Shown here piece by piece: positions 1,849 through 52,132 of a DNA stretch of 64,000 nucleotides (positions within the stretch are counted from its first letter, which is position 1; every line of letters begins with the position of its first letter). The notes beneath the pieces are model-generated. The model was not told where the DNA came from, made no database searches, and worked only from the letters and a program-made list of their open reading frames with translations. The translations under genes were made by a program, and so were the position numbers. This stretch comes from Chrysomallon squamiferum (Eukaryota; Animalia; Mollusca), in assembly GCA_012295275.1 (NCBI GenBank), contig CM022667.1, forward strand, positions 4,588,001 through 4,652,000, written 5' to 3'.

Positions 1849-4800
1849 AAACACATTTTTGCAGGTTTTGTAAACACTCAGAACTGCACATTATTCAACA
1901 CATCGCTGGTTCCCATGAGCTTTCACCTGCGTATTCCATCGGATGGCGACATACCAAGTCTTTGCTGCATGAACAACCTCACTCTGGAAGAAGTGAGACA
2001 GAGTCTGCAGAACACGAAGTCTGTCAAAGAGTTTGAAGTGATCGCTGACTCAGATCAGCTCCAGCCTCTGAGCAAAGTGAAAATACGAGTAAACTTCATT
2101 TCCAACTCGGTCAAAAAGTACGACATTCCCCTCGTTGTTGACATGGACAACATCGGACAAGAAGTGTTGTCTTTAAACATCACAGCAAAGTTAGACTTCA
2201 TTTTGTTAACTGTGTCTGTGTTTTAAAATTTTAATATTTTATGTTAGTTTTAAATTAGTTTTTCAAACAAGTTAATTTCATTTTAATATTTCTGTACATT
2301 TTTTAGAATTTTAATATATTATGTTATTTTTTAAATTATTTTTCAAACAAGTTAATTTCATTTCAATATTTCTGTCTGTGTTTTTGAATTTTAATGTATT
2401 TACCTAATTGTTTGTTTTATTTTTTGTTCATTCAAGTTAATTTCATTTTAGTAGTGCAGTCTCTCTGTCTTTTCATATGTTTGAAAAAAGTTATTATGTA
2501 TAGTCTTTGTAATCAAAAAGAATTTCATTTTAATAAAATTACTTTTTTGTTTAAAAAAAAGTTTTTACCTGTAAATTTATATGGTTGTGCTTTTTTTAAC
2601 AGTATTTAAACACAATACAATGTGAGAATAAAAAAATATTTATTTTAAAAATCTGTTTGTAGATGTATTAAAGTCTATATAACTTTAGAATAAAAAAGTG
2701 TTAAGTGTGCTTATTTAAATATAAAAATATTTATTTATAAAAATCTGTTTGTAGATGTGTTGTGCCAACTATTACGGTACTTACTCCAGTTCTCGACTAT
2801 GGTCGATGTTTTCTGCGTTACCCGCATGAAATGAACATCCAGCTTAGAAATGCGTCTGATTTGCCAGCGAAGTACGAGATGATACGACAAGAAGAACGAA
2901 ACATCGAGAATCCACCTCTCATATATTACACCAGTAAACCAGAAGTAATTACACAACACCTCTAACTTTTCTCTAAATCAGAAACCAATTTATTACTGTT
3001 CTAAACTTTCTTTCATTTATAATATTTCTCTGTTACACTGCTAAATCACAAACCAGTTTATCACTGTTCTAAACTTTCTTTCATTATAACACTTCTCTGT
3101 CAGATTCTAGACATTGGTATTATATTTCTTAACTTTTATAAATCACATTTCTAAACATTCTCTATCAAATTTCTAAACTTTATCACATTTCTAAACAATC
3201 TCTGTCAAAGTTCTAAGCATTCTCTAACAAATATCTAAAAAAATCTCTGTCAAATTTCAGAGCATTCTCTAAAAGTTTTCCTTTACAATTCTAATGTTTC
3301 TCTGTGATATTTTTATCTTTCTCTATTGCATTATCAAGTATCACAGTTTTAAGCATTTTCTATCACAATTCTAAATATCTGTCAGCATATCTGAAAACAG
3401 ACAACACTTTAGCCTGGACCCAGTGAGGAACTGATCCCAGAACCTCTCTGTTCATAATAATGATTACCTAACACACTGTTCACCAAAGCTGGCTTTGTAC
3501 CAAGAACATTTTATTTTGTTTTATTATATTTTTAAATTACTTACTTTTGTTTTGTTTCAGGGAATGTTTTTAATTTTTAATTTATTTTTTAAATTCCTTA
3601 CTTATGTTCTGTTTCAGGGAATCATTGAACCAGAGTGTGATATAGAAATACCTCTGTTTATAGAGGCTCAGGTTTTGGATAAAAATAAAATGACTGTCCT
3701 CATTGACATATTTGGAAAATCTGAACCCCTGGTTAGTAGTAGATGTAATAAAAATGACCTTCAGTATTTACCACTTGCATTATATAGGTCATATATTTTT
3801 TAAATGTGTGGGTTTATGTCTGTGGTGTACTGTTATTTGTTCTTTCATTTTGTATTTCTGTGAGAATTTTGCAAATTTGTGACTAGATCAGAAATACTAA
3901 TATCTTATTTTAAATATAAATGTAAATTAATATATAAATTTGATAAACTAACTGAAATGTAATCTTACTGTATAGTTAATTGTCATATATTGAAGATATA
4001 AATGTTACATTTGTTTTTAGTTTTTTCATTTGACAGTATATCTGTTACAGAATACAACTTGCTATATCTTTTTAGTGTATTACTTGTATTTTTTTAAGAA
4101 AATATCTGTTATATTTTTTCGTGGCATTACTGTTTTATCTTTTCAGAGTGTGACGGTTGTTTTTATTGGGGAGGGGCCGGTTGTGAACTGCCGCCCTACC
4201 AAACTAGACTGGGGTGTGGTCACAGTGCTTCAGGACATAACAAAGAAGATAAGTCTATCAAACGAAGCTCTGATTCCAGCTAGGTTTGAAATTACCCTGG
4301 TACAGTAACCTTCACCTTCCTAACTATTTTTACTGATTAGTTTCTTTCAGTAAGAACCTTTAGAGTGGAGAGGAAACAATATATATATATATAGCAATTA
4401 AATTATAATATTGAAAAATGATCTGAATGAAAACTATCTCTGGAATTTCTGATTTCAGTTCAGTTTTTGTATCTGTTTTTAGTTCTTTATTGCTGTTTTT
4501 TTAATTAGAATTTGTTTCATTCTATTGTAATTTTTTGGTTGTTTATGTTAGTATTTATATCCACTGAGTTGAATAATTCTAATTACTAATTTACTTATAT
4601 GTATACAAATTTTATAAAATGGTGATCCATGTATATATATAGATAAATTCCTAAACGGTAATATTTTTTTTAGATATATAAATGGGAGGGGTATTTGTTT
4701 TTCAAATAATGTGTATGTAAAACAAACTGCCATTTTTTTGTTGAGATTTTAAAAAATTATTATTATTATTATTTAAGAATATTTTAATAAAGTTTTTTTG

Positions 4801-7800
4801 TTTAGTTTAATCCTAACAGCGTGTTTCGTGCTGAACCTTCGGAAGGTGTAATTCCTCCTTTGAAAACTCTGGAAATTTCAGTCATTGCCAACCTTGATGA
4901 CAGCCTCAAGTACATGAAATGTGTTATTTTTAAAATTTAATTAATATGTTTTGCCTTACAACTTTAAAAATATTTTCTTTTTAATTGCATTTTTTCCTAT
5001 TTTATTTCATAATTTAAATAATTAAATTTGCCATTTAATTTTTTAAATATTTTCTTATTAACTGTATTTTTCAAATTATTTTCTTTTTAATTGTATCTTT
5101 TCATAGTAGATTTTATAATTTAATTAAATGCATTTGCTCTCTAATTTCTAAACTATTTATGTTCTTAATTGAATTGAATTTTTTTTTTAAATTTTTTTGT
5201 AATTGTATTTTTCAAAGTAAATTTCATAATCTAATTAAATGAATTTGCTTAATTTTTAAAAATTTTCTTTTTAATTGTATATATTTTTTAATTTTCTTTG
5301 TAACTGTATTTTTTTCAAAGTAGATTTCATAATTTAATTAATTAAATTGGCTCTTTATTTTTAAATTATCTCCTTGCTAAATGTATTTTTTCAAAGTAGA
5401 TTTCATAATTTAATTAAATGATTATTCTCTTTATTCGTATTTTTCAAATTGAGTTACTAATATTTTGAATGGTGTTTTTGAAAGTTTTCAGAACACGCTG
5501 CAGATAGATGTGATAGAGAGCTACTCGCAGACTGTTCCACTCAAAGCTGCTGGTCACGGTTCAACGATTATCTCTGATCCACCTCTAACGTCCAGACTTG
5601 ACCTAGGCTATCACTTCAGGTACAGTGAATAAGTAAAATCTGCAGAAATTATATTTCTATAGCATAACTGAATAATTAAGAATATTCAAATGTTTATTCA
5701 ATAGCAACTGAATAATAAAAAAATATTGAATTTTTTTCATAATAATTGATTATAATTTTCAATTTTTTTTAATTCAAACTGATTGAATAATACTGTTCAC
5801 AAGACTATTCATATTTTTTTATTCAGAGAAATTGAATAATATTCACAATTTGTTATTCGAAGTAACTGAATAATAATAATGTTCACAATTTTTTGTAGTC
5901 AACGTAACTGAATAATAATAATAATATTCACACTATTTTCTATTCAAAGTAATAATAATTGAAAAATAAGAATACTAACACTTCTTTACAGCAATCGTTT
6001 GATCAGAAGGGTGTTCACTTTGACAAACAAAGGCAGAAGACAGCAGTATTTACAGTGGGTCACGGAGGGATTTCAAATCAGTAAACAGAAGAGAAAAATG
6101 CATTCCTTCAACACTCAGGACATTAAAAACAAGGTGCATTATTTTCAGCAAAACATTATTAGCAAAACATCAATTTTAAGCGATTTGCAACACACGTTTA
6201 TGTTGTGCTAAAACTTATTTTAAATTTAGTTTTTAAATATTTTCTTTTTTATTATATAATTTTATATCTTTGTAATATCTTTTATTTTATTTTAAGTTTT
6301 TAAATTATTTTCTTTTAAAGATGCAGTTTCAAATCTTTGTAATAAACCAAAAAAAAAAGAGAAAATAAATAAATATTATATGACCAGGTCAATAAAATAT
6401 AAATCATTATTGATTAAAACTTGAATATAATTAATTATATTTGCCTCAATCTGTGTCTGATGCCTTCAGTTTTGAGTTTTTGTTTTTATTTATTATTAGT
6501 AAAGTAAAAGAGCCAGTAAATATGTATTTGATGTTTTTTAACAAATACGTGACTGAAAAACATTAATAATATTTTTATTGTTTTTATATTTTTAGCATTT
6601 GGATTTTTGCAGACATTTTTAAATATTAGAAAACAGTTTCAGGCAATTGTTTTATTCAGCTGTGCTGTTACTTGATCTGAATGTTGTATTTTTAAATTTA
6701 GAATGTGCCTCCTCCTCCTAAACCAAGTTACCCGATTTTCAACCTTTTGCCCAATCACATGGATTTGCTTCCCGGCCAGTCGACAGAAATGACTCTCGAA
6801 GGAATGGTTGAGAGGTAAATTTATTTTAAGTTTATAAATATATTTTAATTTTCAGTGATTTTTATTTCTTAAACAAACAGTTGATACAGTTCAAATGCAA
6901 GTAAAGTTTAACACATATTTATTTTTTTTAATAAAAGTAAAGTTTAAAAAATTAAGTAAATAAATAAATGAATAAATAAATAAATAAATAAATAAATAAA
7001 CATTCTTGCACTAGAATAGTTTTAATAAAGTTTTATTTGTCAAAATTTGTGTCAGGTTTGTTTTTAAAGGTTTCAGCTTTATTGGGTAACTGATGCTGAA
7101 CATCTCAGTAGATCTCAGTGTGCAGTCTGTTACTGTTACTTCTTTACAGTATTAAATTTCACTGCATTAATCAAATAATATTAGAGGAAAATTTCAAATT
7201 TATTATGTGTATCTGTATGAAAATAATAATAAGAAAATTTTATTATTTATTTTATTACTTTTTTTTTTTAAAGAGTGGTTTCAAAAATTACTCTGAATAT
7301 AATATTTTATTTTTTACTTATCATATTTATTTGAGAATTTTCAGAAAAATAACTATGTACTGAGTTTAGTGAACAAAGATGAGATTTTTTATTGTAATGA
7401 TTTTAATAATTTGTTATTTTCAGTCCTCAGTTCATACATGAGAGACTGCTGTGTTATTCAGTGGTGGGAAAACAAAATGAAAAAGATCTCATTATGAAGA
7501 TAGATCTTCTTGCTAACTGTATCTGTCCTCTTGTAGAGTTTTCTACCAAATGTGTCTACTTCAGAGTCGATATGGTAAATTCTCATTGTTCAAATTTGTG
7601 CTGTTGTTGTTATTATTATTAGTAGTAGTATTAGTATTATTGTATTTATTATTATAGTCATTAGTACAAATTTTGACAAATCTCCTAAAATTTCACAAGA
7701 CACACACACACATTTGCACACACAGAAACACATTAAAAATACTGTGAAAAACATATTCATGAACATACACAGACTTTCATACATACACACAGTATACATT

Positions 7801-10800
7801 ACCTAATAACAGTTCATGTAATAGATGATCCAGATTTCAAGATTTTGTAGAATTTTCTAGACTACAGACTAACTACATACTAATATAAAGAGAGAAAAGT
7901 AAACAACAAAACTGTTTTTACATAAACAAATTACAACACATCTAAATAAAAGAGTTCTAAACACCTGATAAAGGGTCTCATACCTGTTTTGCATATGTAT
8001 GTTTGTAAATATAATGTTAAAAGTTTATTTCCAGTATGGAGGTGAGACTATAGATCTGCTGACAAAAGAATTAACTTTGAGCAATCTGTCCTTCCTGCCT
8101 CTGTCAGCTGAACTCAGTTTACACAAACCTTTTCAGTTCATACTCGAAGATGGAAGTGAGACATCAGAAGTGGTTAGCATGTTAGAGAGTTAAACAGTTA
8201 ACTGAATAAACCCACTTGTAGATTTGTTTGTTTATTAACATAATTTACTAATTTCTATTTCACTACTTATTTTTAGAAGCAACCAATATTCAGTCCCTTT
8301 TTAACAATATATGCCACAATTTTACGTTTAACTAAATATCTGACAATTTATGATAGTGTAAATTTTATTTTTAACTAAATATGTCACAATTTATGAAACA
8401 TAATTTTATTTTTAACTAAATATGTCACAATTTATGAAACATAATTTGATTTTTAACTAAATATGTGATAATTTAAGATAACGTAATTTTGTTTTTAAAA
8501 GATATCACAATTTATGATAAAGTAATATAATAAAAACAAAAAGTAAATTTGTTTTAGGAAGTGGAACTAGATGTTGGCAAATCTGTTTGTCTGAAAATCC
8601 AGTTTGATCATCTGATCTATGGAGAGTTTAATCTTCAAACCATAACAGAACTGTTGTACATTAGATACGCTGAACATCAACATGTTGTAAGTATTTTACT
8701 TACTTCTAACTAGTTTTTAATTATTTATACTTAGTCCTTAATTAATTATTTAATCATGTTGTAAGATTTTTTATTCTTTTTTTTATCAACATATTATAAG
8801 AGTTATACTTATTAAAACTAGTTTAATCAATATGTTGTTGGTGCTTGCTTAGACCTAATTAGTTTTTGATTATTTTGTTTACCGACATTTTTTATTAATA
8901 TTCTTAAATGGAACAGTATCCTTGATATTCTGCTGAACAAAGAAATTTGTCAGCATCAGATTGCATCTTTTGATATAATATTCTGGTTTCTGACTCATGC
9001 ATCAAAACATATACAAATACCTGTCTGCTGCTTGTAGTAGATGATTCCTTCAGAAGGTTAACATTTCCGTGACAATTTCCAGGACAGTGTGACATTGAGA
9101 GGTGAAGTCTATTTTCCAAATATTGAGCTGGAGAAGCAGGTAGTGGATTTTGGCTGCATTATCAATGACACAGAGGTCACTCGCTACGTCAACATGACCA
9201 ACACCAGCCCCATGGTTGTCCACTACAAGTGGTCATTTGTGATTGACAGCGACCACAGTGTTGTGGTTAGTCACCCGCCTGTGAAATCATCACTTGGTGA
9301 GGAGGTGCCGGAGGTTCTGGAGCAAGCCGAGACAGAGACAGACGAACTAGAGTTCACACTGCATAAGTCTGACGAAGTAACTGATTTAAAAAAATTTAAA
9401 AAAATTTAATAATATTTTTTTGTCTTAAGAGAAAACAAATGGTTTCCTGTTTGAATGTAGTGTTTCCTGTTATTTTTGAAAATAGTTTTTCTTTTTTCAG
9501 TATTATATTTTGTTATGTCTGTCCTTTTCTTTTGAATCTGATATGTCCGTCTCTTATCTCTAGATGTCTGCCCCTCTATTTCTCTCTTTCTGTCTCTCTT
9601 AACCTTTCTCTATCTCACTTTTTGCTCTTTCTCTCTCTTAACCTTTCCATTTGTATATTTGTCTCTTTCTCTTTCTTTCTCTCTCCATCACCATCTCCCA
9701 CTACCTCTGTCTATTTCTCATCCTCTCTCTCTCTCAAACTTCTGCTTTCTCTCTCTCTTTTACCTTCTCCATCTGTATGTTTGTCTCTTTCTTTCTCTGT
9801 CAAAATCTCTCTCTTTCTCTGTTACTGACTCTGTCTGTTTGTCTGAGTCTCTCTGTTTGAGAAAGAAGTAAAACTAATGAGGTATGTTATGTGTAGATGT
9901 ATGAAACTCACTCTCAGGAAGTGGAGGAAGATAAGAGAAGAGGAAGTAACCGTGGTGACAATGTGGTGTCATTTCTTCAGGACATTGGTTCTCATAGCAA
10001 CAACAGGGAGATAACTTCTGTTGACATGGAGAAGGTAACTCTGTTGGCTTTTCTTACTATTGAATTTCTCATAGAAGGTAATTCTCTTGTCTTTTCTTAC
10101 TAATGTATAATATGGGCTTAATGCAGTGAATATTATTTAATATGTCCAAATTATAAAATATATTGCGAAAAGCACTAGGTTACTATAATAAGTAATAACA
10201 ATTACTTACAGTATTTCATGTATATTTTTAAAGGCAAAGAAAACATTTCACTAAGACATATTTGAATATTTTGTTCTATGACTTATGGTCTGAATGCAGT
10301 GTTAACAATGGTTGTTTAAAAATGTAATGTTCAGGGTCAGCTGGATGTCGAACAGGAGACAACAACAAAGGATGACACGACGGAGGAGACCTTGGAGGAG
10401 GAGCAGGAGGAGGAGGAGGATCTGGTGTATGATGAGATGATGGAATGGAATCTGATACAGCTGAGTGCAGAAGAGGAGGCACTGAAGTCTAACAAAGTTT
10501 TGTCTTCTCTTTTAGAGAACAGACGACAGAGAGCCACTCCCATTGGCATCGAGCAGGTTTGACTCTGTTTACACTCAGCAGAAAAACAAATGTCATGTTG
10601 AAATCATTACTATTTCTTTTAATATAATCAAAAACCACTGTGCATATGAACCATGCTATAACTTCAACTGCATGTGTGTAATGTTGCCATATGTGATTTA
10701 CGTTCTGTAGCCAGTTATTGCATATTTGACTTGAGTGCTGCACACCTTTGAGAAACCGGAGATCAAAGAGTGTACACAATTTTGGATCACAAAATGACCA

Positions 10801-12121
10801 TCTTGGAGCATGTTGCTGGACACAGTGTCTGGGATGTTGCCAGATGTTTCAGTATAATCAAAGTCACCATACAGAGACTGTACAGTCATTTGCAGGCCAC
10901 TGGATTCACCAGGGTCAGTTGACAGAATGCAGCAGATGAGTTATTTGTCTGCACATGGCTGGTATATCAAAACAACTACTTTCCAGATCATCTTGTCACA
11001 CCTCAGTCCACTCAAACACTTGCAGGGTGATCTAGAAAGATAAATACATCTGGAGCAGACTGATTGAGCAGTAGTGTAGAAAATACACACAGAGTTTGTG
11101 AACAGGACATTTCATTACATAAGACACTGATGTCAAGTCTACATTAATTTATACAAGAGCAAAGTAGACATCCTATTCTTCTGCTGGAGCAGTCATAAAG
11201 ACGAAGATGTTCAGTCTCTGCTGTGTTTAATTGTTGACATGTGGAAATTATTCACATTAATAATCTAATGCATTATTTCTAAAATTCTTTTTAATATAGT
11301 TGAAAATGATTATACTTGTACATTTTATTAACAATAACAAAAAAAATATATAAAACAGGATAAAACATGCATTTTCTTTTGTTCCTTACTCTTGTCTTGA
11401 TCACTTATGTATATTTTCTAAGTTGAGGTGTTTGTTAGAACTTACATCATTTGGGATTTTCTTACTTGATTCTTCTGCTGTTGTGTGTTTTGTGTGTAGG
11501 TGTTTAATAAAACTTACATAATCTATTTTTACTTACTTGATTCTTCTACTGCTGTATGTTTTGTGTGTGTAAGTGTTTAATAAAACTTATGTGATCTATT
11601 TTTTACTTACTTGATTATTCTACTGTGTATATTTTTTGTGTATAGATGTTTGACATAATCTATTTTTACTTACTTGATTATTCTACTGTGTATGTTTTGT
11701 GTGTAGGTGTTTGACATCATGCCACTGTATGGGGTGCTGGAACCTGAACAGAATGATCAGCTCACTCTGACGTTCTTCGGACACACTGACATACGTGCGG
11801 AGGTGAAGTGTGTGTGTAAAATCGAGGGTGGACCCACCTACGAGCTGAGAATGAAAGGAGAAGCTTCGTCCATTGAGTACAGCTTCAATATAAAACAAAT
11901 CAACTTCGGTCAACAGGTGCCATAGTGTGTTTTCATGTGTCTTTGTGTGTTTGTGTATATATGTATGTGTGTATGTGTGTGTGTGTGTGTATGTATATGT
12001 GTATGTATGTTTGTGTATATATGTATATGCATATGTGCATGTGAATGTATATGTGTATACATGTATATATATGTCCATGTGTATGTGTGTGTATATGTGT
12101 TTGTATATGTGTATACATGTG

Positions 12122-12152
<31 letters not shown>

Positions 12153-18100: not shown

Positions 18101-18259
18101 GACGTTCTAAATCCACTGGATGATGCAGAATCTCCTACTGAAGAGAAAGGTAGATAACTCTGTTAAACCTGACACCATTTTGAATTAGTAGAGAGAAATG
18201 TATTGCTTAAAACAATACAAAGATAATTTGTTAAACCATATGCAACCCATGCACACAGA

Positions 18260-18309
<50 letters not shown>

Positions 18310-21300: not shown

Positions 21301-21365
21301 CACGCACACATACACAGAATGACATACACATATTTGTATTGTTCATGTTGAGGTTCATATGTTCA

Positions 21366-21405
<40 letters not shown>

Positions 21406-23104: not shown

Positions 23105-23146
<42 letters not shown>

Positions 23147-23711: not shown

Positions 23712-23758
<47 letters not shown>

Positions 23759-24428: not shown

Positions 24429-24463
<35 letters not shown>

Positions 24464-29320: not shown

Positions 29321-29355
<35 letters not shown>

Positions 29356-29551: not shown

Positions 29552-29593
<42 letters not shown>

Positions 29594-30786: not shown

Positions 30787-30823
<37 letters not shown>

Positions 30824-32016: not shown

Positions 32017-32056
<40 letters not shown>

Positions 32057-35000: not shown

Positions 35001-35186
35001 TATTATTATTTTTTTCTCTTAGTAAGTAACAAGTGGTCGTGGTGATTGAAGAAAGAAAAGAAAATGACAGTTTTTAAGAAGCTGTGTGTTTAGTTTACTT
35101 CTTTATTTTCAAATATTTGTTAAGAATTTGTTCTCATATATTTAAAAAATGATTGTGGAAGTTACAAAATGTTTGTGAATATGTTC

Positions 35187-35228
<42 letters not shown>

Positions 35229-40991: not shown

Positions 40992-41022
<31 letters not shown>

Positions 41023-41372
41023 CATCTGAAGTTTCAAAATGTTTAATGAAGGGCTTATACAGATGGATTACAAATGGCACATTATTTCTAACTCCCTGTT
41101 ACTGGGCTCGAAAAGATCAGTGAGTTTTTCTTCTGAAGAGAAGGCTAAATCAAGTGAAAGCATGTTCCTCCCGTTTTTCATTGAGCCACAGCGTGGAAGT
41201 ATCATGGCAGGCCAGAAAGAAGATTTCACAGTGAAATTCTGTCCCTTGGATCTGAACGATTATGAATCAAAACTGATCTGCAGGTGAGTGTTTTGAATTG
41301 TAGACGTCTGTGTTTGTCTTTTGTAGGTATAAAAGTTTGTTCCTGTTTGTATGTGTTATGAAAGTATATTAA

Positions 41373-41418
<46 letters not shown>

Positions 41419-42545
41419 ATGTATACAAATATCATATTTCAACATCAGGTTATTTTTAATAGATTTTGTTTCTAAAGATTAATATTTATATTTATAATTT
41501 AAAAATAACAAAAATGTTACGACTGCTTTAAAACATTTGAACAAGCTTCAGTTGAATGAGTAAAGTCAGTTAAGTGTATAAATGTCAGTTTATAATCATG
41601 TAATTTGTTCTGTTTCTAAATGTTACTGTTATGTTTTCACTGCCCAGCATTCCTAATCTTGAGGGTGAGGACCAGGGACCTGTGGTTGATTTGAAGGGTC
41701 GTAGTTTGATGCCGTATTGTCACTTTGAACTGCATGAATCTGACTACCTCCTTCGAACTTCTAATGACTCAGCAGAAACTAAGCACAACCCAAACATGCA
41801 GGTCATCGAGTTTTCTTGCACCGGAATAGGAGTTAAAACTATTAGGTATGTGTTAACATACAGTTTATAGAGTTTTCTTGTGTTATTTTAGGAGTTAAAA
41901 CTATTAGGTATGTGTTAACATGCAGGTTATAGAGTTTTCTTGTGTTATTTTAGGAGTTAAAACTGTCAGGTAAGTGTCAGTATACAGGTTATTGTGTAAT
42001 TTTTTGTGTATTTATTCCACAATGTGTTTAAGTTCATTGTAATACTTCTATCTACTATCTGTGCGTATGTAGTATGTATGTATGTATGTATGTATGTATG
42101 TATGTATGTACGTATGTAGTACGTATGTATGTATATATGTCTATGTATGTATGTATGTCTATGTATGTATGTATGTGTATGTATATATAAATTTATTGTA
42201 ATACATCTCAGTTTCTGTTAGTAGTTTTGAGACTAGTTTTGTGTTGTAATTTCAGGGAATTCAACATGTTAAACCCGACTAAACTCAACTACAAGTTCCA
42301 GTGGGTGTGTACTGACGAGGCAGATTTGAAGAGACCTATGTGTTTCAGATGTCTCCACCCAACCGGAGAAATACAGAGTCGCAAAAAATTTAAAGTAACA
42401 AAAATATCATGTATTTTACAAACAAACAAAAAGTATAAAAGATATTGCATTTATTAATATAATAATAGTTTTTTTTTAGAAGAAAAGAATAATAAGAATA
42501 ACAAAAAATATAGTGTGTTTTATAATAATAGTTTGTCTTTGTTTG

Positions 42546-42600
<55 letters not shown>

Positions 42601-43687
42601 AGAGTAAACATTTAAAACCTAGAATGACATTAATCTACTTTTTATCAGGCAGCGTTTGAGTTCACTTCCAGTGAACTTGAGTTGATCGAGTCTTCGTGGA
42701 CGTTCAACATTCCTGAGAGAAACATCAGCGTCCCGTTCCTCCTGGTTGGCAAGATGAACGACCCCAGCATCATCATGGACCGCGCACACATCGCACTCAA
42801 TGTCCTGATGGGCAGAGAGGCCAAGGAGACTTTCTACATCGTGAACAGTGAGAATATCCCGTTCCGGTTTGCCTTTGAGAAGCAGTCCTTGCAGTCAGAT
42901 GGGTTTTCAGCCCCTCTTGGCGTGGAGCCAATGTCAGGCAAAGTGCAAGCAAACTCAAAGTGAGTCTGAGCAAAATACTTTTATTTGTTTCTTAATTACT
43001 TTGTCCTAGTATATATATATATATATACATATATAGATAAAATATGGCAACCATATTTTTATCGTATTCTAATTATGTTTGATGTGGGAAATTTCCAATG
43101 ATTAAAAAAAAAAGGTTCATTTGACAATGATTTTCAGTAACTAAATATAAATCCATTATTTTTCTTTCCTAGAAAAATAAAGGATGTGTATATTATAATT
43201 ACAATTTTTTTTTCTTAGGAGATATACAAATTTAACAAAAAAATTTGTTTTGAAAATAAATTTCACAGGCTTCCCATAAGCTTGACCTTCATTCCGAACT
43301 CGGAGAAGAAACTGAATTTCAATTTGATCTGTAACGTGAAGTCGAAGAAGCAGCCGATCATGTTGAATGTGAAGGCTCAAGGTTACATCATCCTGTCCTG
43401 TGTTTACTATGAACACTTCTCTGGAGAAAGAGTTGAACTCAGCGATCAGGAGCTTAGTCTTATAGACCTGGGAGAGGTTTTTACATTGTTTTTATTAGTT
43501 TGTTTCAGTCGTTTTATAAATTATATCCCAGTTCATTAAATTTGTTAGTTAGGTTATTTTTATATTTATTATTAATTAATTTATTTGTTTAGTTATTTAG
43601 TTAGTAGTATTATTAGTTTCAGGAGTTGTAGTAGTAGTACTTGTGTTGCTGTTATTGTTAATATTATTCTTGTTATTATTATATTAC

Positions 43688-43750
<63 letters not shown>

Positions 43751-45381
43751 TTTTTAATATAACTATTATTAGTATTTTATTACTTTTTAAAATACAACTA
43801 TTATTACTGTTATTATTGTTGTTATTATTAATTATTATTTTTTTTAATATGACTATAATTACTATTATTATTATTTTTAATATTACTATTATTATTATTA
43901 CTATTATTGTTGTTGTTGTTGTTGTTTAGACTGAGGTGAATGAGGAGGCGACTAGGAACGTGATAGTGACAAACACAGGTAAATTTAACTTCACGTTCAG
44001 GTGGGAAATACCTGACAAACTGGCCAAGAAAGGCATCGTCATCATCAACCCGAGTGTGGGGGAGGTAACTGTGGGCAAGAAAACAACGTGCAGATTATCA
44101 TTCATCCCTCCTAATCCCTCACTCTGAAGTGTGAAGTTCTGCTGAAGGTAAATCCCTGCCTTGTTTAATCCAACCCATGTTAGCATCTAAACCATCACCC
44201 ACTTCTTTTCTTTATCTTAACACTCAGCTTCAGTAGCCTTGAATAACTGATAGATTAGACCAAATCATTAAAAATAATAATTATCTTCTTATTTTTATCT
44301 TTAATTTCTAATGTTTCTTGTCCCAGCCAATATTCCACATCTGGTGTAACAAATATTTCTGGATGTACTCTGCTTTCTGTGGGATGGTATACTTAAAAGA
44401 TTTGCTGCTGCTAATTGGAAAGAGTAGCCCATAATGTGTCTGCAGACAGATTTCTCTCTCATATTCTTAGTGGTCAAATATTAAATGCTGTGTATAAGCA
44501 TATATAAGTGAGTGGGTTGTTAAATAAAACATTTGATTTTGATTTTGATTTTTCTGTTACAGATTTCAAATGGTCCTACTTACAACATGAGAATTCTTGG
44601 AGTGGGGGTCTCTTCCAGTGTTGTGTTCTCGTTTGACAGTCACAAGTTTGGCAGCTGTTTCATCCACCAGGCAGGCATGCCTGTCAACTCCACCATTCTT
44701 CTCATCACTAACAAAAACACCAAAGACATCAGGTATTTTTAAACATGGTATTATTGTCTTCAGCCAGTTTTACACATCATTGATAGTTTTTCCATTTGTG
44801 ATTTTTTCAAGCAGGAATAATGCTAAAAATGTCCATGTTTTAGTTGTTCATCATTGATAGTGTTGTTTTTTCCTGAATCTGATTCTCCTAAGAAAAAAGA
44901 AGTCAGGTTTTTTTTCCAAAATGCCAACATTTGATAGTTTTTCCAGTCTGATTCTCCAGTCAGCCAAAATATAGCTTGATTCAGTTTGAGGTGTCACCTT
45001 TTATATGTAATAAATATAAACAAAATTATACTAAAGACAGAAGCAAAAAATATCAACAATGTTTTGCTCAGTTTCATATAATATAAATTTAAAATTTAAA
45101 ACAAAAACAAAATAAAAATTATTTTCAGTGTTGATTGTCTGTATGAACCAACAAAACAGTTGCATCATACATTCAAAGCTGGGATTATCAAGCCAAATGA
45201 AACCATGGAAACAACCTTCACCTTTTATCCAAGGGAAGCAATCAAGTATCACGAGACTGTGACATTTGAAATAAACAGTTTAATAAAACGCAGTGTGGAG
45301 TTTTTTGGACAGGGAACAGAGCTGAAGGTAAAACAAATAAGTTTTAATATCAGGAGAAAACAACAGTAATATTATAGTGCA

Positions 45382-45412
<31 letters not shown>

Positions 45413-47951
45413 TTCTGTGTTGGTTTGTGTGTGTCTATATCAGTATCAAAAGTTAAGTCATATATTTAGTTAAAATTCCATGTTGTAATTTTCAAGGTTG
45501 AGGTTGCAGATCCTAAGTTCAAAATGATAAACCTTGGAGCTAGGAATATTGGTGATGACGTGAAGAAGGTTGTACCCATAGTGAACAAGAGTCTGGCTGC
45601 CATCCAGCTCAAGGTGGGGGTGTCCCGCAACACAAAGGCGCTCTCAGACTCGTACGTTCTCAGTGTCCAGCCACTGGATGGGCTGAGTCTACCTGCCAAA
45701 GGAGGAACATCTAACGTAGAAGTCATCTTCAGACCACGATGTAGAATCCTGCAGTTCACAGAGGAGGTAGAGTTTATCTTGTTACGTACAGGAAGCAAAA
45801 TGTGTTATTGTTTGTTTTGGTTATTAAAATTTGTAGATAAATGTGTGAAGTTCTGCCATACTTTTCCATTCATGTCGTATCAGGACCATAAAATAAATTG
45901 TTAAAGATTACAGTATATTGGTTACATTTTAAGTTTTTATGTTTTTATTTGGTTTATGGATTTTTCAGGTACACATTTATTTACTGTTAAAAGTGAAATG
46001 TATAAACATGCACACATGTGCAACACATAGATAACATGCATGCGCACACACACACACACAAACACACCCAAATGTAAACACAAGTATAAATAGACAGCAA
46101 ATATAAAAACCATATTTGTTTATTTTCATCTGTGTCTGTATGACTGTTGGCCTGCACACACACACACACTTATATGTATATGTCTGTGTGTGTGTGTGTG
46201 AGTGCATGTGTATGTTTGAGTGTCTGAATGAATGTTTCCGAGTGTGTTTGTGTGTTTCACTGGGTGTGTGTGTTGTGTGTTTCTAACAGTGTTAACACTG
46301 TACTACATGTGTTTGCGTGTTGTGTGTTTCTAACACTGTACTACAGGTGTTTGTGTGTTTCTCTGTGTGTGTGTGTTGTGTGTTTCTCTGTGTGTTTCTA
46401 ACAGTGTTAACACTGTACTACAGGTGTTTATGTGTTTCACTGTGTGTGTGTTGTGTGTTTCTCTGTGTTTCACTGTGTGTTTCTAACAATGTTGATATTT
46501 ACATACTAAACTCTGTACTACAGGTGTTTGTGTGTTTCACTGTGTTTCTAACAATGCTGGTAGTTACTTACTAAACTGTACTACAGGTGTTTATGTGTGT
46601 GTGTGTTGTGTGTTTCTAACAGTCTTAACACTGTACTACAGGTGTTTATGTGTTTCTGTGTGTGTGTGTTGTGTGTTTCACTGTGTGTTTCTAACAGTGT
46701 TAACACTTGTACTACAGGTGTTTATGTGTTTCTCTGTGTGTGTGTGTGTTGTGTGTTTCTCTGTGTGTGTTTCACTGTGTGTTTCTAACACTGTTTACAC
46801 TGTACTACAGGTGTTTATGTGTTACTCTGTGTGTGTGTGTTGTGTGTTTCTAACAGTCTTAACACTGTACTACAGGTGTTTATGTGTTTCTCTGTGTGTG
46901 TGTGTGTGTTGTGTGTTTCACTGTGTGTTTCTAACAGTGTTAACACTGTACTACAGGTGTTTATGGAGTACTTGGGACTCAGTCAGCCACTGTTTCTGAT
47001 AAAAGGTTCGTGTCTGGGTATGGAGCTCACTCTGGACATTGAGAATCTCGTGTTCGGAGCTGTCATGCTGCGCAGCAGCAGCACCCGCAAACTGGGCATG
47101 TACAACACCGGCGACATCAACGCAAAGTAAACTTAACTGATTTCTACAGCCTCGTTTTTCTGCTCCTGTTATTAACATCATCAAAGTTCATAAAATTTTG
47201 TGATAAAAGTTAATATACTTGAGTTTTCTGTAAGATAAATACTTTCTTGTTGCAATTAAATATAAAAATAAATAAAGAATTATCTTTTTTCTCAACAATG
47301 TAAGATAATATAATTTGACTTAAAAAGTTAATATAATAATGTATTGAAAAAAATATAAACACAAAAAATTAAATTATAAAATTAAACCAAAAAAAAATGT
47401 ATAGTATCACAGTTTGGTTATAAAAATATGCTGCAGTCTATGGATAGGTTTACCTACAAGATATTTTGATGCTAAGTGATTAAAAATAAAAAAGTTTATT
47501 TGATAATGTTTCAGGTTCAGATGGGATGTAAAAAGGTTTGCTCCAGATTTCTCCATTACTCCAGTAGAAGGGTTCATCACTGCTGGCAAAGAAATCGTGT
47601 TTGATGTAACATTCCACCCACAGGAAGTGAGCTCCGAAATAAAATATGAAGTGAGAGATTTTATTTATTTATTTATTTATTTATTTTCTTATTTATTTGT
47701 TTGTTTGTTTGTTTGGTTGTTTAATTCATTATTTATTTATTTATTTTCTTATTAATCTATCTGTCTGTCTCTCTGTCTGTCTGTCTATTTATTTAAAGGT
47801 ATTCAGCCAAAATAATGTTATTATCTCAAATTATGTTAATTTGTATGTGGAATAATTTATGTATGCTACAAAACAGGAGAAAAATTATTGTTAAAACTAA
47901 AAGTTAAATAAAGTGTGCTAAACTGCAACATCAAACAAACAAAGCAACAAA

Positions 47952-47986
<35 letters not shown>

Positions 47987-49126
47987 ACAATCAAACAAAA
48001 CAGGATTTGTTATAATGCTTACTAATTCGGATTATCATTATAATATCATTTGGAAGTTTGGTAATATTGATAGGTACTTAACTACAGACGTGACTAACCA
48101 CAACAACAAAACTGACCACATTATAATATCATATTATTCATAATATGAATTAGCAATGTTAAAATTATTAATACTTTTTTTTTTTAAACAATTTTTTCAG
48201 TTATAATTTTCCCTTGTATATTTCAGAAACTGGAATGTTTTCTCAAAGGAGGTGAACATCCTCCGTTGATGCTGACGTTGTGCGGGTTGTGTACGCCTGC
48301 TACCGCAGCGAAGGAAGTACAGAACTTTGTTGTGAGTGTTCGACAGAAGGACATGAAGAACATTCCCATCCTGAACAAGAGTAACAGCACCTGGGAGTTG
48401 AAACCAATCATTGATGGAGAACACTGGACCGGTCCCACTACTTTCATCATCGAAGCACTGCAGACAAAGATGTACCCAATCACGTACAAACCTGTCACCA
48501 TGACGAAAGATAACAAAAAACATCACGTGAGGTTTTGATTGAGGCTTGCTTAGATAGAAGTTAATTTTTGTGGGGTTTTTTTTGGTTTCATTTTGTTGTT
48601 TGTTTGATTTTTGTGGATATTTAGTTTATATACTAATTTATAAATTATATATATATATATATATATAGTTTAATTTGTATTTAATTTATGTATTACATTT
48701 ATTAATATATGTATATATAATGTGTTTGTGTGTGTATGTGAGTGAGTGTGTATTTGTTGTTTTTTAATTTATTTATATGAAATCTTTTTAAAATGAAAAA
48801 AAAAACAATTCTTTTATCAGTGTCTTCTCCAAATCTTACGTCATAATCCTGTTATTTTCTTTTTTAAAATTATGTCCACTCAACAATTAAATCAATAAAC
48901 CGTTTATAAAAATATTTTAATTGATTAAATAAAATGTTTCCTGAGTAAATAGTTTCTACTGAATTTCATGTTAAAACTCCATTCAAACTCCTATCTATAA
49001 AACAGATGTAAATTCTTTGAACTAGAAAACCTTTGAACATAGAACCTCTGAGAATTTCTTGGATGTCAGATCACTTTAATAGAAGATGCTGACTATGTGT
49101 GTATAAAGCCAATAGATAAAAAAAAA

Positions 49127-49160
<34 letters not shown>

Positions 49161-49448
49161 ACTAGGTAGAATATAAAATTTGGAAACAGAAAGATCCTTA
49201 CTTACATCAGCCTGTGTAATAATTCTGGTGTGTTACGTATTATAATTAAATTATTTTTGGTATTCCAGGGTTCCTTGTTCTTCCCTCTGCCAGATGGGCG
49301 ATGTCTTCTGTTCTATCTGACTGGTATTGCTGAACATCCGAAGGCTGCAGACAAAATCACACGCGACATTCCATGTAAAACATCCTTCACTGAAGTGCTG
49401 CCTGTGAAAAACTGGCTCAAGAAACAACAGAGGTATCTTGTTCTAATT

Positions 49449-49510
<62 letters not shown>

Positions 49511-52132
49511 CATGATAATAATAATATTAATAATATTAATAACAATAACAATAATAATTAACAAAAAAATAATAATAATAATAAATACAAAATACAATAG
49601 AATTATTATTCTTTTTTTCCTTCTTCTTTTTAAAATGAACAGGAATTAATAAACATTATTCCATTCTAACCTTATATGAAATTGTTCTTCTGAAATAAAT
49701 TTAATATCCTATAAAGTGCAAAATAGTTTGCTATACCAAATTTACTTCCAGAGAGGACATAAGTAAATAGCAACAGATCTAAATGGCTGCTATGTTTCTG
49801 CTGTAATTAACAAATACATACTTTGTTTCATAGCCTCACGTTACTACAGAAAGTTGTTACTGCTGACTATTTCAGATTCCGAGTGAGAAACGAGATAGTG
49901 AGATCTGAGAGGGTGGATCCGGGTGTGGTTGTGAAGGGAATGGATTTCATCGATGTCCCAGCCAATGGCAAGAAAAACTACAAACTCACTTTCTACAGCT
50001 ACAAAGAAGGAAGTGTCTTTATAAAGGTCAGTCAGACATGTTTATCTTTTATCATTTACAAATAAAACAACAACTTTATTTTTGTCACTTTTTCAGTGGT
50101 AATCGCTAAAAGATTTAAAAAAGTAAACATTTGTTTCTCTGTTTGCAGGTGTCGTTCACTAATGAGCAGACTGGGGAGTATTTGTTCTACGAGCTGTATT
50201 ACCGAGGCACCAAGCCAGACGTCATAGCAACCATAGAACTGTCCACCCAGGTGCGACAGTCAGTGCAGCACACGATTCAGCTGCTTAACCCGCTTCCACA
50301 CCAGGTGACCTTCATAGCCCAGACTAGCACAGCAGACATCTTGATACCTTCATCTGTCGTAGCATCGCCAGAAACAGAGGTAGTCACAGTTCTTGTTTTG
50401 TCTTGTTTTGTTCATTTTGTTGTTTTAATCTCACCACGAATTGTTTTGTTTTCTGCTTCTTTAAAAGTGAAAAACAAAAAAAAATCTATTTTAATTAGTA
50501 ATGTCTGGCTATATACTAATGAAGAAAGAAATTAAGATACTTCACAGACTGATTAATAAGAAAAATAATTTTACAGGGGTTGAAAATGAGTTATATTTCA
50601 GTATTTATCAAGATCTGTTGTTGTTTTAAATTGTTTCTGCTTTTTAATATTATGTTGTTGCTGTGTCAGTAAAGTTTGATTTGTGTTATACAGGTAGATG
50701 TGACATTTGAATATCAGCCACTCAGTAAAGTTTGATTTGTGTTACACAGGTAGATGTGACATTCGAGTATCAGCCACTCAAAGTGGGTAAAACAACTGGT
50801 CGACTGGAATTTGTCTGCAGTGAACTTGGTCTTTACATGTATGACTTAGATCTGAGTGCCAGTCCAGCAGTTCCAGAGAAACCACTGTACTTCAGAACAG
50901 CACTGGGACAGAACCAAGTCCAGGTGGCGAAATTCTTCAACTATTACAAACAGAGATCAGAATATGCATGCAAGGCAAGTTCAGATATATAAATATCTGT
51001 ACAGACAAACACACACACACACAAACACACATATAATTTAAAAATAGTTGCCGATAGCTTGCTCATTCATAGTTTATATTTTTAATTTTTATCAAGTATC
51101 TTGCAATACTAATGAACAGCACGCATGTCACTGACTTCTCAAAATGTTAAAATTTTACGAGTTATAAAGAAAAGTGTTGTTTTTGTTTCTTTGAAAACAG
51201 TAATTTAATGTTTGATTTATTTTACTTGTCAATAACAAGTCACATTTTTGTTGTTTGTTAAAATCTAAATATTTACATCAGTTAAAAACTCATTTCAATA
51301 TCAGACTGATAATGAACGTTTATACAGATTTTGTCAGCAGACAAACTGATTAGTTTATTAATAATTATTTTAAATTTTTAATTACTTTTCACAGTCCACT
51401 TATTTTATAGATTTTTGCCAACAAACATGTTTATCATTTCATAAATAATTATTTAATAATTTAATTTTCAGATTGACATTTCAGATTTTTTTTAAATATA
51501 TTTTTGGCAACAAACAGACTGACAAGTTTCTAAACAATTTTTTCAAAAAATTTATATTAAATTCACAACACAGATTTTGTTTTGTGTATAAATTTTTGTC
51601 AACAAGTCTAATGAGAATTTTACAAATAAATATTTCTAAACTTAACTTTCAGATTGACAATCCAGATTTTTCGGTTGTGAAGACTGTGAGTGTGACAGGC
51701 TACGGCACCGAACCTACAGTGGACGTGACCTTTGAACCCTCAGAGCTGGGTGAACAGCGCGGAATGCTGACAGTGACCTCGCCAGTGGGCGGAGAGTACT
51801 GCTTCCCTCTGTTTGCCACCTGCCTGCCCCCCAAACCGCAAGGACCGATCGTAATCAAATCTGGGTCGCCCGTCACCATCATGTTCAGAAATGTGTTTCG
51901 AAGCATCACGCAGTTTTCCTTTCAGATCGACAGTCCGATGTTCAGCGTGCCAAAAACCTCCGACTCCATTCGACCGCGGCGAGATTACAAACTCGTCATT
52001 TCGTTTAACGAGTCTGATAAAAACCGGGGGCCAGTCACAGCTCAGCTGATTGTGTCGTGCGCTCGCTCAGCGACTGGGATGAGCAACGTGGAGTGGGTGT
52101 ACTACTTGAAAGGAGCCAGCAGTGACAAATGA
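424..52132 (+). CDS. HYDIN: Hydrocephalus-inducing protein homolog (Hydin), multi-exon, 5' end outside window
   Basis: Spliced translation is collinear with vertebrate HYDIN as I recall it (EPLQGEIWPNS..YCDITGRESRLPL; GEGLFPRISLDLPR; LPEYVLDFG; DWDDRLKTVKWVD; C-terminus WVYYLKG). Exons read by eye with AG/GT boundaries and phase checks: 424-923, 1465-1532, 1865-2189, 2755-2944, 3618-3731, 4147-4299, 4806-4909, 5485-5619, 5992-6133, 6702-6814, 7424-7574, 8035-8172, 8558-8686, 9083-9376, 9897-10034, 10335-10556, 11707-11916, 12574-12711, 13242-13976/13991, 14455-14645, 14920-15193, 15597-15782, 16370-16504, 16976-17215, 17462-17564, 18060-18149, 18455-18610, 18752-18937/18952, 19826-19944, 20443-~20550 (3' end garbled), 21033-21216, 21861-21996, 22378-22434, 22819-22860, 23283-23447, 24184-24416, 24736-24797, 25195-25337, 25823-26032, 27582-27623, 28536-28717, 28977-29159, 29738-29857, 30171-30503, 30885-31086, 31581-31680, 32089-32188, 32518-32769, 33355-33510, 34071-34154, 34793-34946, 35404-35838, 36264-36494, 36923-37022, 37763-38026, 38459-38732, 39394-39470, 39834-40043, 41032-41283, 41648-41845, 42256-42394, 42649-42959, 43269-43476, 43930-44147, 44563-44732, 45129-45327, 45497-45766, 46957-47126, 47515-47650, 48227-48526, 49269-49432, 49876-50026, 50149-50379, 50750-50974, 51653-52132. 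Exons in the low-complexity middle region (19.8-28.7 kb) are less certain. Confidence 0.96.
10570..11390 (+). mobile_element. Decayed Tc1/mariner DNA transposon remnant in a HYDIN intron
   Basis: GC-balanced island in an AT-rich intron. 10800-10922 translates ILEHVAGHSVWDVARCFSIIKVTIQRLYSHLQATGFTRVS*, resembling a Tc1 N-terminal HTH. Weak inverted ends: TACACTCAGCAGAAAAACAAATG at 10570 and CATTTTCTTTTGTTCC near 11370. Boundaries approximate. Confidence 0.6.
11440..11720 (+). repeat. About 62-nt tandem repeat, 4 copies, spanning the acceptor of exon 11707
   Basis: Unit TTTTACTTACTTGATT(C/A)TTCTACTG..TGTTTTGTGTGTAG|GTGTTT; the last copy is the real junction. Confidence 0.85.
13242..13991 (+). 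CDS. HYDIN: Large HYDIN exon containing a low-complexity insert with repeated KxxQT motifs
   Basis: ORF 13266-14000. Conserved part VAHFEPDIIHLFGEGLFPRISLDLPR is followed by a Ser/Thr/Lys/Gln-rich segment. Donor is either 13976 (gtagga) or 13991 (gtgagt), both phase 0. Confidence 0.85.
15830..16142. repeat. 36-nt minisatellite, about 9 copies
   Basis: TAAGGTATACTTGGGTTTAATAGGTTAAAATAAT(A/G)T starting at 15841, 15877, 15913 ... 16129; no spacers. Confidence 0.95.
17610..17890. repeat. About 30-nt degenerate minisatellite
   Basis: ACAGCTTATAGAAATAGTTTTAAATTCATT repeated about 8 times. Confidence 0.85.
18455..18952 (+). CDS. HYDIN: HYDIN adenylate-kinase-like (P-loop) domain exons
   Basis: Joining 18610 to 18752 gives IVVIVHGPHKSG-KTSTAQKLAEKY, an intact Walker A GxxxxGKT. 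An ADK-like domain in mid-Hydin is established knowledge. Confidence 0.88.
18925..19200 (+). repeat. About 19-nt tandem repeat built from the donor region of exon 18752
   Basis: AAACAGGAA(G/A)TGAGTAAGT repeated more than 10 times, starting inside the exon. Confidence 0.88.
20068..20580 (+). repeat. 77-nt tandem repeat, 5 near-identical copies plus a partial copy, spanning an acceptor
   Basis: Units start at 20068, 20145, 20222, 20299, 20377; TACAG|GTGACT at 20133, 20210, 20287, 20365, 20442; partial unit at 20551-20580. Confidence 0.95.
25375..25735. repeat. (ACT)-rich trinucleotide-derived repeat with an internal 75-nt duplication
   Basis: TGTCTACCACTACTCCTATTACT recurs at about 25470, 25545 and 25620; lies in the intron between exons ending 25337 and starting 25823. 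Confidence 0.85.
25992..27117 (+). repeat. Array of about 10 copies of an exon end plus donor, separated by variable (CA)n tracts
   Basis: Unit CAGTTACTTACCAGACAGCAGACACGCCCTGACTGCATAGT|GTGAGTTCCTTCATCTAAGTGTTTT(AC)nATCTGTGT at about 25992 (real exon), 26107, 26224 (truncated), 26329, 26435, 26579, 26643, 26745, 26855, 27065 (degenerate). Confidence 0.95.
32870..32980 (-). mobile_element. Fragment of the same SINE-like repeat, inverted
   Basis: GCTATTCTTTTT..TAGCAAG..TTTTATGTGATACCTTCCCACAGA aligns with the reverse complement of 44377-44430. Confidence 0.45.
40035..40380 (+). repeat. About 50-60-nt tandem repeat spanning the donor of exon 39834-40043
   Basis: AGTTTACCA|GTA(C/T)GTTT(G/A)TTCA..AGAGA(T/A)AGTTATTCATTTTATTTACC, about 7 copies decaying with distance. 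Confidence 0.92.
41808..41990 (+). repeat. About 62-63-nt tandem repeat, 3 copies, spanning the donor of exon 41648-41845
   Basis: GAGTTTTCTTG..TAGGAGTTAAAACTATTAG|GTATGTGTTAACAT recurs; donors at 41845, 41907 and 41969. Confidence 0.88.
44320..44535 (+). mobile_element. Degenerate SINE-like interspersed repeat (3' part)
   Basis: The core TCTGTGGGATGGTATACTTAAAAGATTTGCTGCTGCTAATTGGAAAGAGTAGC has inverted, diverged copies at about 32876-32930 and 56480-56550. It resembles a gastropod SINE tail from memory only. Confidence 0.55.
46270..46965 (+). repeat. TG-rich tandem array with 9 copies of the acceptor of exon 46957
   Basis: TGTACTACAG|GTGTTT with the AG ending at 46346, 46423, 46523, 46586, 46641, 46717, 46810, 46875 and 46956 (real); each is preceded by TTTCTAACA. 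Confidence 0.95.
50667..50781 (+). repeat. 56-nt direct duplication of an acceptor plus exon start
   Basis: CAGTAAAGTTTGATTTGTGTTA(T/C)ACAG|GTAGATGTGACATT(T/C)GA(A/G)TATCAGCCACTCA occurs twice. Confidence 0.95.
51653..52132 (+). CDS. HYDIN: HYDIN terminal coding exon
   Basis: actttcag|ATT GAC AAT... to TGA at 52130-52132; GGEYCFPLFATCLPPKPQGP and WVYYLKG match the recalled Hydin C-terminus. Confidence 0.93.
   Translation: MDNPDFSVVKTVSVTGYGTEPTVDVTFEPSELGEQRGMLTVTSPVGGEYCFPLFATCLPPKPQGPIVIKSGSPVTIMFRNVFRSITQFSFQIDSPMFSVPKTSDSIRPRRDYKLVISFNESDKNRGPVTAQLIVSCARSATGMSNVEWVYYLKGASSDK

What the first reader, a model, noticed from the sequence alone, without database searches (positions are those of the whole stretch)
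2625..51675. Systematic splice-junction echo repeats: many HYDIN exon-intron boundaries are locally amplified
Seen: at least 14 junctions have one or more adjacent intronic copies that include the splice site plus a few exon bases. Acceptors: 2754, 3617, 11706, 20442, 28535, 37762, 46956, 50749, 51652. Donors: 10034, 18952, 26032, 40043, 41845. Each array has its own unit, so this is not one mobile element. The functional site is the exon-proximal copy and the copies extend into the intron. Ages range from near-identical (20068) to heavily decayed (37440). Several are centred on AG|GT. Known: tandem duplication of AGGT segments can create introns, and AG|GT is the signature of recursive splice sites. 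Inference: either a junction-biased duplication process that grows introns from their ends, or genome-wide local slippage where only junction-preserving events survive. Either way the spliceosome must choose among many near-perfect decoys.
Basis: partly seen in the sequence, partly recalled or inferred. Interest (0 to 1): 0.8.

Follow-up and report, generated by a model that had tools for sequence, protein, structure and literature searches.

The report
Mollusc HYDIN splice-junction "mirage" repeats
In the large cilia gene HYDIN of a probable mollusc, 14 exon edges are copied head-to-tail, splice signal included, into the neighbouring intron; this repeat type is already known as "mirage" from lancelets, the RNA uses the original site at the two edges checked, and the spare copies are likely harmless duplication debris, although they sit on exon edges about twice as often as chance predicts.

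Summary
Units are 19-181 bp, unrelated to each other, and always extend into the intron. 43 of 49 spare copies keep AG or GT. RNA contigs use the exon-proximal acceptor at the 2 of 14 edges I could test. Enrichment is real but modest: 13 of 28 non-microsatellite arrays span a junction, against 5.0-6.5 expected (P 0.0003-0.004), in a window picked for the pattern. No array is wholly exonic, and the copied exon part is short, which fits a selective filter. AG|GT centring is not enriched (6/14 vs 41/133), no array fills its intron, and decoy dinucleotides decay like the bases around them. Intron creation and recursive splicing are therefore not supported. This is the known 'mirage' minisatellite of amphioxus (also human F7 intron 7). 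This scan has reported it before, once in this genome and in several others. My paper searches found no mollusc case and no genome-wide test. Why junctions are favoured remains open.

The parts
424..52132 (+). 3' part of the HYDIN gene, 75 modelled exons, stop at 52130-52132. Exon 30 is unresolved; frame breaks near 20520, 38658 and 44115 are probably assembly indels.
   Evidence: tblastn of full-length homologues along the window, frame check, Pfam PF22544, RNA joints
2627..2758 (+). Acceptor echo of exon 4 (site 2754|2755): one decoy at -92, 4 exon nt copied. RNA uses 2755.
3508..3622 (+). Acceptor echo of exon 5 (3617|3618): one decoy at -57, in frame and stop-free, scoring higher than the real site. 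RNA uses 3618.
10030..10102 (+). Donor echo of exon 15 (10034|10035): one decoy at +43, 5 exon nt
11457..11717 (+). Acceptor array of exon 17 (11706|11707): 3 spare copies, unit 61-73 bp, 2 with AG intact
18926..19201 (+). Donor array of exon 28: 19-bp unit, about 14 copies; the donor used is 18937 or 18952 (both in frame)
20068..20467 (+). Acceptor array of exon 30 (20442|20443): 77-bp unit, 4 full spare copies, 97% alike; each unit also carries a piece matching 20551-20580
25992..27160 (+). Donor array of exon 39 (26032|26033): 41 exon nt, donor and a variable AC tract per unit; 8 spare copies, the last partial
28439..28544 (+). Acceptor echo of exon 41 (28534|28535): 35-36 bp unit, 2 spare copies, one with AG lost; the weakest case (score 14)
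37440..37788 (+). Decayed acceptor echoes of exon 55 (37762|37763) at -156 and -309, interrupted by AAAT expansions
40035..40377 (+). Donor array of exon 58 (40043|40044): 51-bp unit, 6 spare copies; the last two have lost GT, the first three are in frame and stop-free
41793..41992 (+). Donor array of exon 60 (41845|41846): 62-bp unit, 2 spare copies, mostly exon-derived
46270..46965 (+). Acceptor array of exon 68 (46956|46957): 9 spare copies with variable TG tracts, 8 with AG intact
50666..50780 (+). Acceptor echo of exon 74 (50749|50750): 56-bp unit, one spare copy, 94% alike, 31 exon nt
51436..51671 (+). Decayed acceptor echo of exon 75 (51652|51653) at -181, 19 exon nt
2197..40647 (.). 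Control set: arrays inside introns that span no junction, starting at 2197, 2973, 3142, 4928, 8298, 9384, 15833, 17609, 24476, 30627, 31179, 34511, 37237 and 40478; 28439 also counts as interior at score 16
   Evidence: the 2197 array is also present in DNA contigs of runs X1 and X2

Best explanation
The 14 arrays are 'mirage' minisatellites: local tandem duplications that cross an exon edge and are likely kept because the spliceosome goes on using the copy next to the intact exon. Shown: the copies, their intron-side direction, their independent origin, a 2-2.6 fold excess at junctions, and correct splicing at 2 sites. Inferred: they form like the 15 interior arrays of the same introns, by slippage or unequal exchange, and then change copy number. 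Inferred: selection removes wholly exonic duplications and most with a long exon part, and the rest decay neutrally. Inferred, and the weakest step: the excess at junctions comes from one copy being undeletable, which could roughly double an array's lifetime, plus the fact that this window was picked for the pattern.
For: All 14 were recovered in a scan of 149 junctions. Units are unrelated; only two low-complexity cross-matches were found. The same introns hold 15 interior arrays of similar period, span and identity. Wholly exonic arrays: 0 against 4.5-5 expected, P about 0.01. The exon share of the unit averages 0.27 against 0.5 (P=0.001), or 0.35 (P=0.05) for the 10 units fully accounted for. 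Decoy dinucleotides mismatch at 8/98, exon parts at 48/790 and intron parts at 127/1652, so there is no sign of selection on decoys. Transitions outnumber transversions 102 to 81, as real mutation would give; copies are not independent. RNA contigs of X6 and X7 join 2189-2755 and 2944-3618, skipping both decoys, including one that is in frame, stop-free and higher-scoring. The anatomy matches the published description of mirages (PMC3087553 passages). In human F7 the identical downstream donors are functional but silent (PMC1557585 abstract).
Against: A filter alone should deplete junction-spanning arrays, yet they are enriched: 13 of 28 vs 5.0 (P=0.0003) or vs 6.5 under the conservative null (P=0.004). 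Longer persistence predicts lower identity at junction arrays, but they are not lower (median 0.95 vs 0.91, P=0.19). Interior arrays are not shifted towards intron ends (P=0.44). Splicing was read at 2 of 14 sites, in two runs of one study, from contigs that drop rare isoforms. The youngest array sits beside an exon whose frame is broken in this assembly.
Confidence: 0.68

Rival explanations
1. Duplications form preferentially at exon edges: a breakpoint falls a few bases inside the exon because forks stall, DNA breaks or R-loops resolve at the step from AT-rich intron to GC-rich exon.
For: The excess remains under the conservative null, and at every threshold from 14 to 24 under the plain null. 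Junction arrays are as young-looking as interior ones. Breakpoints crowd 4-13 nt inside the exon at 8 of 14 sites. Exon GC is 0.46 against 0.27 in introns. Earlier notes of this scan report similar excesses in other phyla (unchecked, and subject to the same selection of windows).
Against: One gene, chosen for the pattern. The 95% range of the fold excess is 1.2-3.7 across the two nulls. The two neighbouring genes have no non-microsatellite array at junctions or in introns (0 of about 25 junctions, P=0.08). No shared breakpoint motif was seen by eye.
Confidence: 0.2
2. The copies are kept or tolerated because they work in splicing: AG|GT acceptor copies would act as recursive (re-splicing) points that rescue mis-splicing, or extra U1/U2AF sites would strengthen weak junctions.
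For: 4 of 9 echo acceptors are AG|GT against 9 of 65 others (P=0.045, post hoc). They carry more copies (9, 4, 3, 1 vs 2, 2, 1, 1, 1; P=0.06). The donors they would regenerate score at the 52nd-90th percentile of this gene's donors.
Against: There is no overall AG|GT excess (6/14 vs 41/133, P=0.38). Decoy dinucleotides are no better conserved than their flanks. Echo sites are not weaker by leave-one-out score (P=0.51 for acceptors, 0.16 for donors). These introns are only 0.3-1.5 kb, whereas recursive splicing is known from very long introns (recalled).
Confidence: 0.07
3. The arrays are assembly artefacts.
For: The assembly has at least three frame-breaking indels in 14.4 kb of coding sequence. 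The region next to the 97%-identical array at 20068 is disordered. No DNA contig was seen to bridge a junction array (184 pieces were not shown).
Against: Copies differ by substitutions with a transition bias and share variants among themselves. Several are only 70-85% alike. An interior array of the same kind (2197-2400) is present in DNA contigs from two studies. Exact copy numbers of the young arrays could still be wrong.
Confidence: 0.04

Closest known systems
Amphioxus 'mirage' minisatellites (Adh3, globins BflGb6 and BflGb9, troponin C, PGBD5). Seen: 7 passages of PMC3087553 and 8 of PMC3902484. The original Adh3 paper, PMC117041, is not held and is known here only through these citations.
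   Same: Tandem copies spanning a 5' or 3' exon-intron boundary, units of tens to about 160 bp, most copies with AG/GT, 81-100% identity, normal splicing.
   Different: Here a probable mollusc, and 14 independent arrays in one 52-kb gene with an enrichment test. The passages I read describe single-gene cases and call the mechanism unclear. Haplotype and somatic instability were shown in amphioxus and could not be tested here.
Human F7 intron 7, 37-bp VNTR (PMC1557585; abstract and section list read)
   Same: The first repeat spans the exon-intron boundary; identical downstream pseudo-donors stay silent and the most upstream site is used.
   Different: One donor array in one gene; here both donors (5) and acceptors (9).
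Intron gain by tandem duplication: Rogers' AGGT model and the potato RdRp case (PMC4974935, part 1 of 5 read); human internal tandem repeats at exon-intron boundaries (PMC2812944, 7 passages)
   Same: A duplication crossing an intron-exon boundary or holding AGGT supplies spare splice signals.
   Different: No new intron is seen here: each array covers only one end of a longer intron, and 8 of 14 are not AG|GT.
Recursive splice sites (ratchet points; recalled, no paper read)
   Same: AG directly followed by a donor-like GT in the copies at 4 acceptors.
   Different: Short introns, no conservation of the decoys, no overall AG|GT excess, no RNA evidence of use.

Membership tests
Mirage minisatellites | Tandem duplication whose unit spans an exon-intron boundary | tested here: met
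   14 junctions, 49 spare copies
Mirage minisatellites | Both 5' and 3' boundaries are duplicated, with locus-specific units of about 10-160 bp | tested here: met
   5 donors, 9 acceptors, units 19-181 bp, unrelated to one another
Mirage minisatellites | Many but not all copies keep AG/GT | tested here: met
   43 of 49
Mirage minisatellites | Regular splicing is undisturbed | tested here: met
   At 2 of 14 sites, RNA contigs of 2 runs from one study use the exon-proximal acceptor; the other 12 were not tested
Mirage minisatellites | Inner copies are homogenised, the boundary copy is set apart | tested here: inconclusive
   By inspection only: at 26032 the spare copies share differences from the functional copy, and 40043 shows a gradient; no trees were built
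Mirage minisatellites | Copy number varies between haplotypes or cells | not testable with these tools
   Only short-read contigs were offered, and no listed piece bridged a junction array
Intron gain by tandem duplication (Rogers type) | The intron consists of the duplicated segment, which supplies both splice sites | tested here: not met
   All 14 arrays end 123-925 nt before the other end of their intron
Intron gain by tandem duplication (Rogers type) | Unit centred on AGGT | tested here: not met
   6 of 14 vs 41 of 133 other junctions, P=0.38
Recursive splice sites | AG followed directly by a donor-strength site | tested here: inconclusive
   True for 4 of 9 acceptor arrays; regenerated donors score at the 52nd-90th percentile
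Recursive splice sites | Splicing intermediates or lariats at the site | not testable with these tools
   No raw or nascent RNA reads were offered
Mobile element (introner or MITE type) | Related copies at different loci | tested here: not met
   blastn of the 14 arrays against the window gave only two low-complexity matches elsewhere

The most novel reading that the evidence does not exclude
Exon edges are hotspots of tandem duplication in invertebrate genomes: breakpoints fall a few bases inside the exon several times more often than in intron interiors, so introns grow from their ends, and AG|GT acceptors tolerate the most copies because a wrongly chosen copy can be spliced again.
Probability: 0.2. 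Interest if true: 0.6.

Novelty: new member of a known kind. Interest (0 to 1): 0.25.

Why it matters
As it stands this is a dense, clean example of a little-known repeat class in a phylum for which my searches found no published case. It is a natural test bed for splice-site choice: 40 of 49 decoys score within 1 bit of the real site or higher, yet at the two sites read the site next to the exon wins. It is also a warning for gene annotation. It would matter more if the excess at junctions held genome-wide among young duplications, because the origin of mirages is described as unclear (PMC3087553) and a junction-biased mutation process would bear on intron growth and intron gain.

Tried and rejected
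No whole genome is held, so the genome-wide test could not be run. The one metagenome scan, with exon 75, returned 3 loci from 193 pattern matches: two at 33-36% identity and one 27-residue match, so no orthologous introns. Read evidence covers 1860-4700 only, and 12 of 14 junctions have no RNA or DNA check. DNA depth of X1 and X2 at 2525-2809 and 3475-3664 is not used as support: the listed pieces there are short low-complexity matches, 184 pieces were not shown, and exon 4 itself had no DNA depth. Rejected ideas: echo sites are weak sites (gone under leave-one-out scoring); interior arrays crowd intron ends (P=0.44); junction arrays are older (P=0.19); one mobile element. The hit at 43929 was dropped as a TTA microsatellite. 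The donor of exon 30 was left out of all counts after because it is unresolved (147 junctions counted). The 75-bp repeat at 25470 and the 42-bp repeat at 5835 do not appear among the 28 arrays (microsatellite mask or score threshold); counting them as interior would make the share 13 of 30. A candidate 42-nt exon at 28313-28354 was dropped because it does not fit the frame. Supplements of the papers were not opened; those of PMC3087553 (mirage alignments and trees) bear on the homogenisation comparison.

Full report
Setting. The window is 32% GC and rich in microsatellites. No whole genome is held. Exon 1 matches Pfam HYDIN_VesB_CFA65-like_Ig. Its best named relative is a Solemya velum protein at 57%, and for the last exon a Batillaria attramentaria protein at 53%, so the animal is probably a mollusc. 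A full-length homologue (P0015) aligns in order along 427-52129. From this and frame continuity I built 75 exons, all with AG acceptors and GT donors except one GC donor and the unresolved donor of exon 30 (exon 38 end corrected). The frame breaks near 38658 and 44115 and inside exon 30 are probably assembly indels. Exon 30 (from 20443) could not be resolved.

Observation. Listing copies across the whole adjacent intron gave 49 spare copies, all on the intron side, with units of 19-181 bp. 43 of 49 keep AG or GT, and 40 of 49 score within 1 bit of the functional site or better on a matrix built from the gene's other junctions. 14 have an intact dinucleotide at an in-frame offset, and 5 of these would give a stop-free extension. 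The 14 arrays are unrelated to each other. Copies differ by 102 transitions and 81 transversions (shared variants are counted more than once), which argues against assembly error, though the copy numbers of the young arrays are unverified.

RNA and DNA. Only contigs of public runs were offered, and I could lay them on 1860-4700 only. Both RNA runs (X6, X7; one study) join 2189 to 2755, 2944 to 3618 and 3731 to 4147, so the exon-proximal acceptor is used at the two echo sites in that stretch. This includes 3617, where the decoy at -57 is in frame, stop-free and scores higher (12.4 vs 10.5 bits). Contigs drop rare isoforms, so minor decoy use is not excluded. DNA contigs of two studies (X1, X2) hold the interior 80-bp array at 2197-2400; no listed piece bridged a junction array.

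Is it more than chance? With microsatellites masked, 201 diagonal segments at score 16 or more cluster into 28 arrays; two block shuffles gave 0 and 1 such segments. 13 of 28 span a junction and none is wholly exonic. Uniform placement of each unit over intronic and junction positions predicts 5.0 (P=0.0003); thresholds 14 to 24 give 14/35, 13/28, 11/24, 11/22 and 8/19 against 5.4, 5.0, 4.5, 4.1 and 3.8 (P 0.0002-0.02). Removing all array and microsatellite bases from the intron space raises the expectation to 6.5 (P=0.004). The excess is thus 2.0-2.6 fold (95% range 1.2-3.7 across the two nulls), in a window chosen for this pattern. The two neighbouring genes show no such array in introns or at junctions (0 of about 25 approximate junctions, P=0.08).

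Mechanism. Shown: intron-side direction, independent units, correct splicing at two sites, the excess. Signs of a selective filter: 0 exonic arrays against 4.5-5 expected (P about 0.01), and a small exon share of the unit (mean 0.27, P=0.001; 0.35, P=0.05 for the ten units fully accounted for). Signs of neutral decay: mismatches are 8/98 at decoy dinucleotides, 48/790 in exon parts and 127/1652 in intron parts (detection favours intact copies). Echo sites are not weaker than others. Inferred: formation by slippage or unequal exchange, as for the interior arrays, and choice of the site next to the exon. For donors this choice is shown experimentally in human F7 (PMC1557585 abstract). For acceptors I rely on the RNA here and on the recalled experiments of Reed and Maniatis with duplicated splice sites, which I did not read. 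The cause of the excess is not settled. I favour longer persistence of arrays anchored by an undeletable copy, plus window selection. Two of my tests do not support persistence: junction arrays are not more diverged than interior ones (0.95 vs 0.91, P=0.19), and interior arrays are not nearer intron ends (P=0.44). Biased formation at exon edges stays open (0.2).

AG|GT is not enriched overall (6 of 14 vs 41 of 133, P=0.38). Among acceptors it is 4 of 9 vs 9 of 65 (P=0.045, one of several post hoc tests), with more copies at those four (P=0.06) and plausible regenerated donors: a weak hint of rescue by re-splicing, no more. No array reaches the other end of its intron (123-925 nt short), so none is a Rogers-type new intron (model as described in PMC4974935, part 1 of 5). 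Echo introns are longer (median 709 vs 426 nt, P=0.0005), which fits growth from the ends but is partly circular.

Known kinds. [quoted passage not shown] PMC3902484 adds troponin C and PGBD5. PMC2812944 covers human repeats at exon-intron boundaries. The original Adh3 paper is not held. Four defining features are met here, one is inconclusive and one untestable, so this is a member. Searches (listings only) showed no mollusc case and no genome-wide enrichment test; the library lacks most subscription papers. The scan has noted the same pattern before: 28 findings in at least 9 genomes hold my search words (eight shown, unchecked).

Verdict. Real, modestly enriched and already named: a new member of a known kind, interest 0.25. 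The open and testable point is why exon edges carry about twice their share of duplications.

Noticed in passing
window 20443-20700: Exon 30 is broken in this assembly. Its start is open in one frame and the part matching HYDIN homologues continues in another. About 100 nt with pieces resembling the neighbouring 77-bp repeat lie before a possible 15-nt micro-exon at 20632-20646, which itself has two decayed look-alikes downstream. Assembly error or recent rearrangement; unresolved.
   Followed up: partly
window 18926-18960: Two in-frame donors inside the 19-bp array (18937, weak; 18952, strong). If 18952 is used, a repeat copy has added five codons to the exon, i.e. the donor has slid along the array.
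   Followed up: partly
window 26100-26915: Most spare copies at this donor begin with CAG and end at GT, so each is a potential 38-nt frameshifting pseudo-exon separated by AC tracts.
   Followed up: no
window 18052-18072: An 11-bp duplication straddles the acceptor of exon 26 (18059|18060); it is too short for my threshold and was not counted.
   Followed up: no
window 50974-50976: GC-AG intron after exon 74, the only GC donor in the model.
   Followed up: no
window 38658 and about 44115: Single frame breaks inside exons 56 and 64, probably assembly indels.
   Followed up: no
window 53730-60006 (-): Gene of about nine exons with a CS domain (PF04969), tail to tail with HYDIN. It resembles NUDCD1 (name recalled, not tested). 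No junction echoes.
   Followed up: partly
window 60551-64000 (+): Start of a third gene with a long serine/arginine-rich exon holding a coding 36/108-bp tandem repeat at 63231-63644; no Pfam match.
   Followed up: partly
window 25470-25643: Perfect 75-bp intronic duplication made of ACT-rich low-complexity sequence, probably very recent.
   Followed up: no
window 1896-4257: RNA and DNA contigs differ from the window at several exonic positions (e.g. 2085, 4257, and 2869-2897 in one X7 contig) and inside the 2197 array, showing allelic variation in this species.
   Followed up: no
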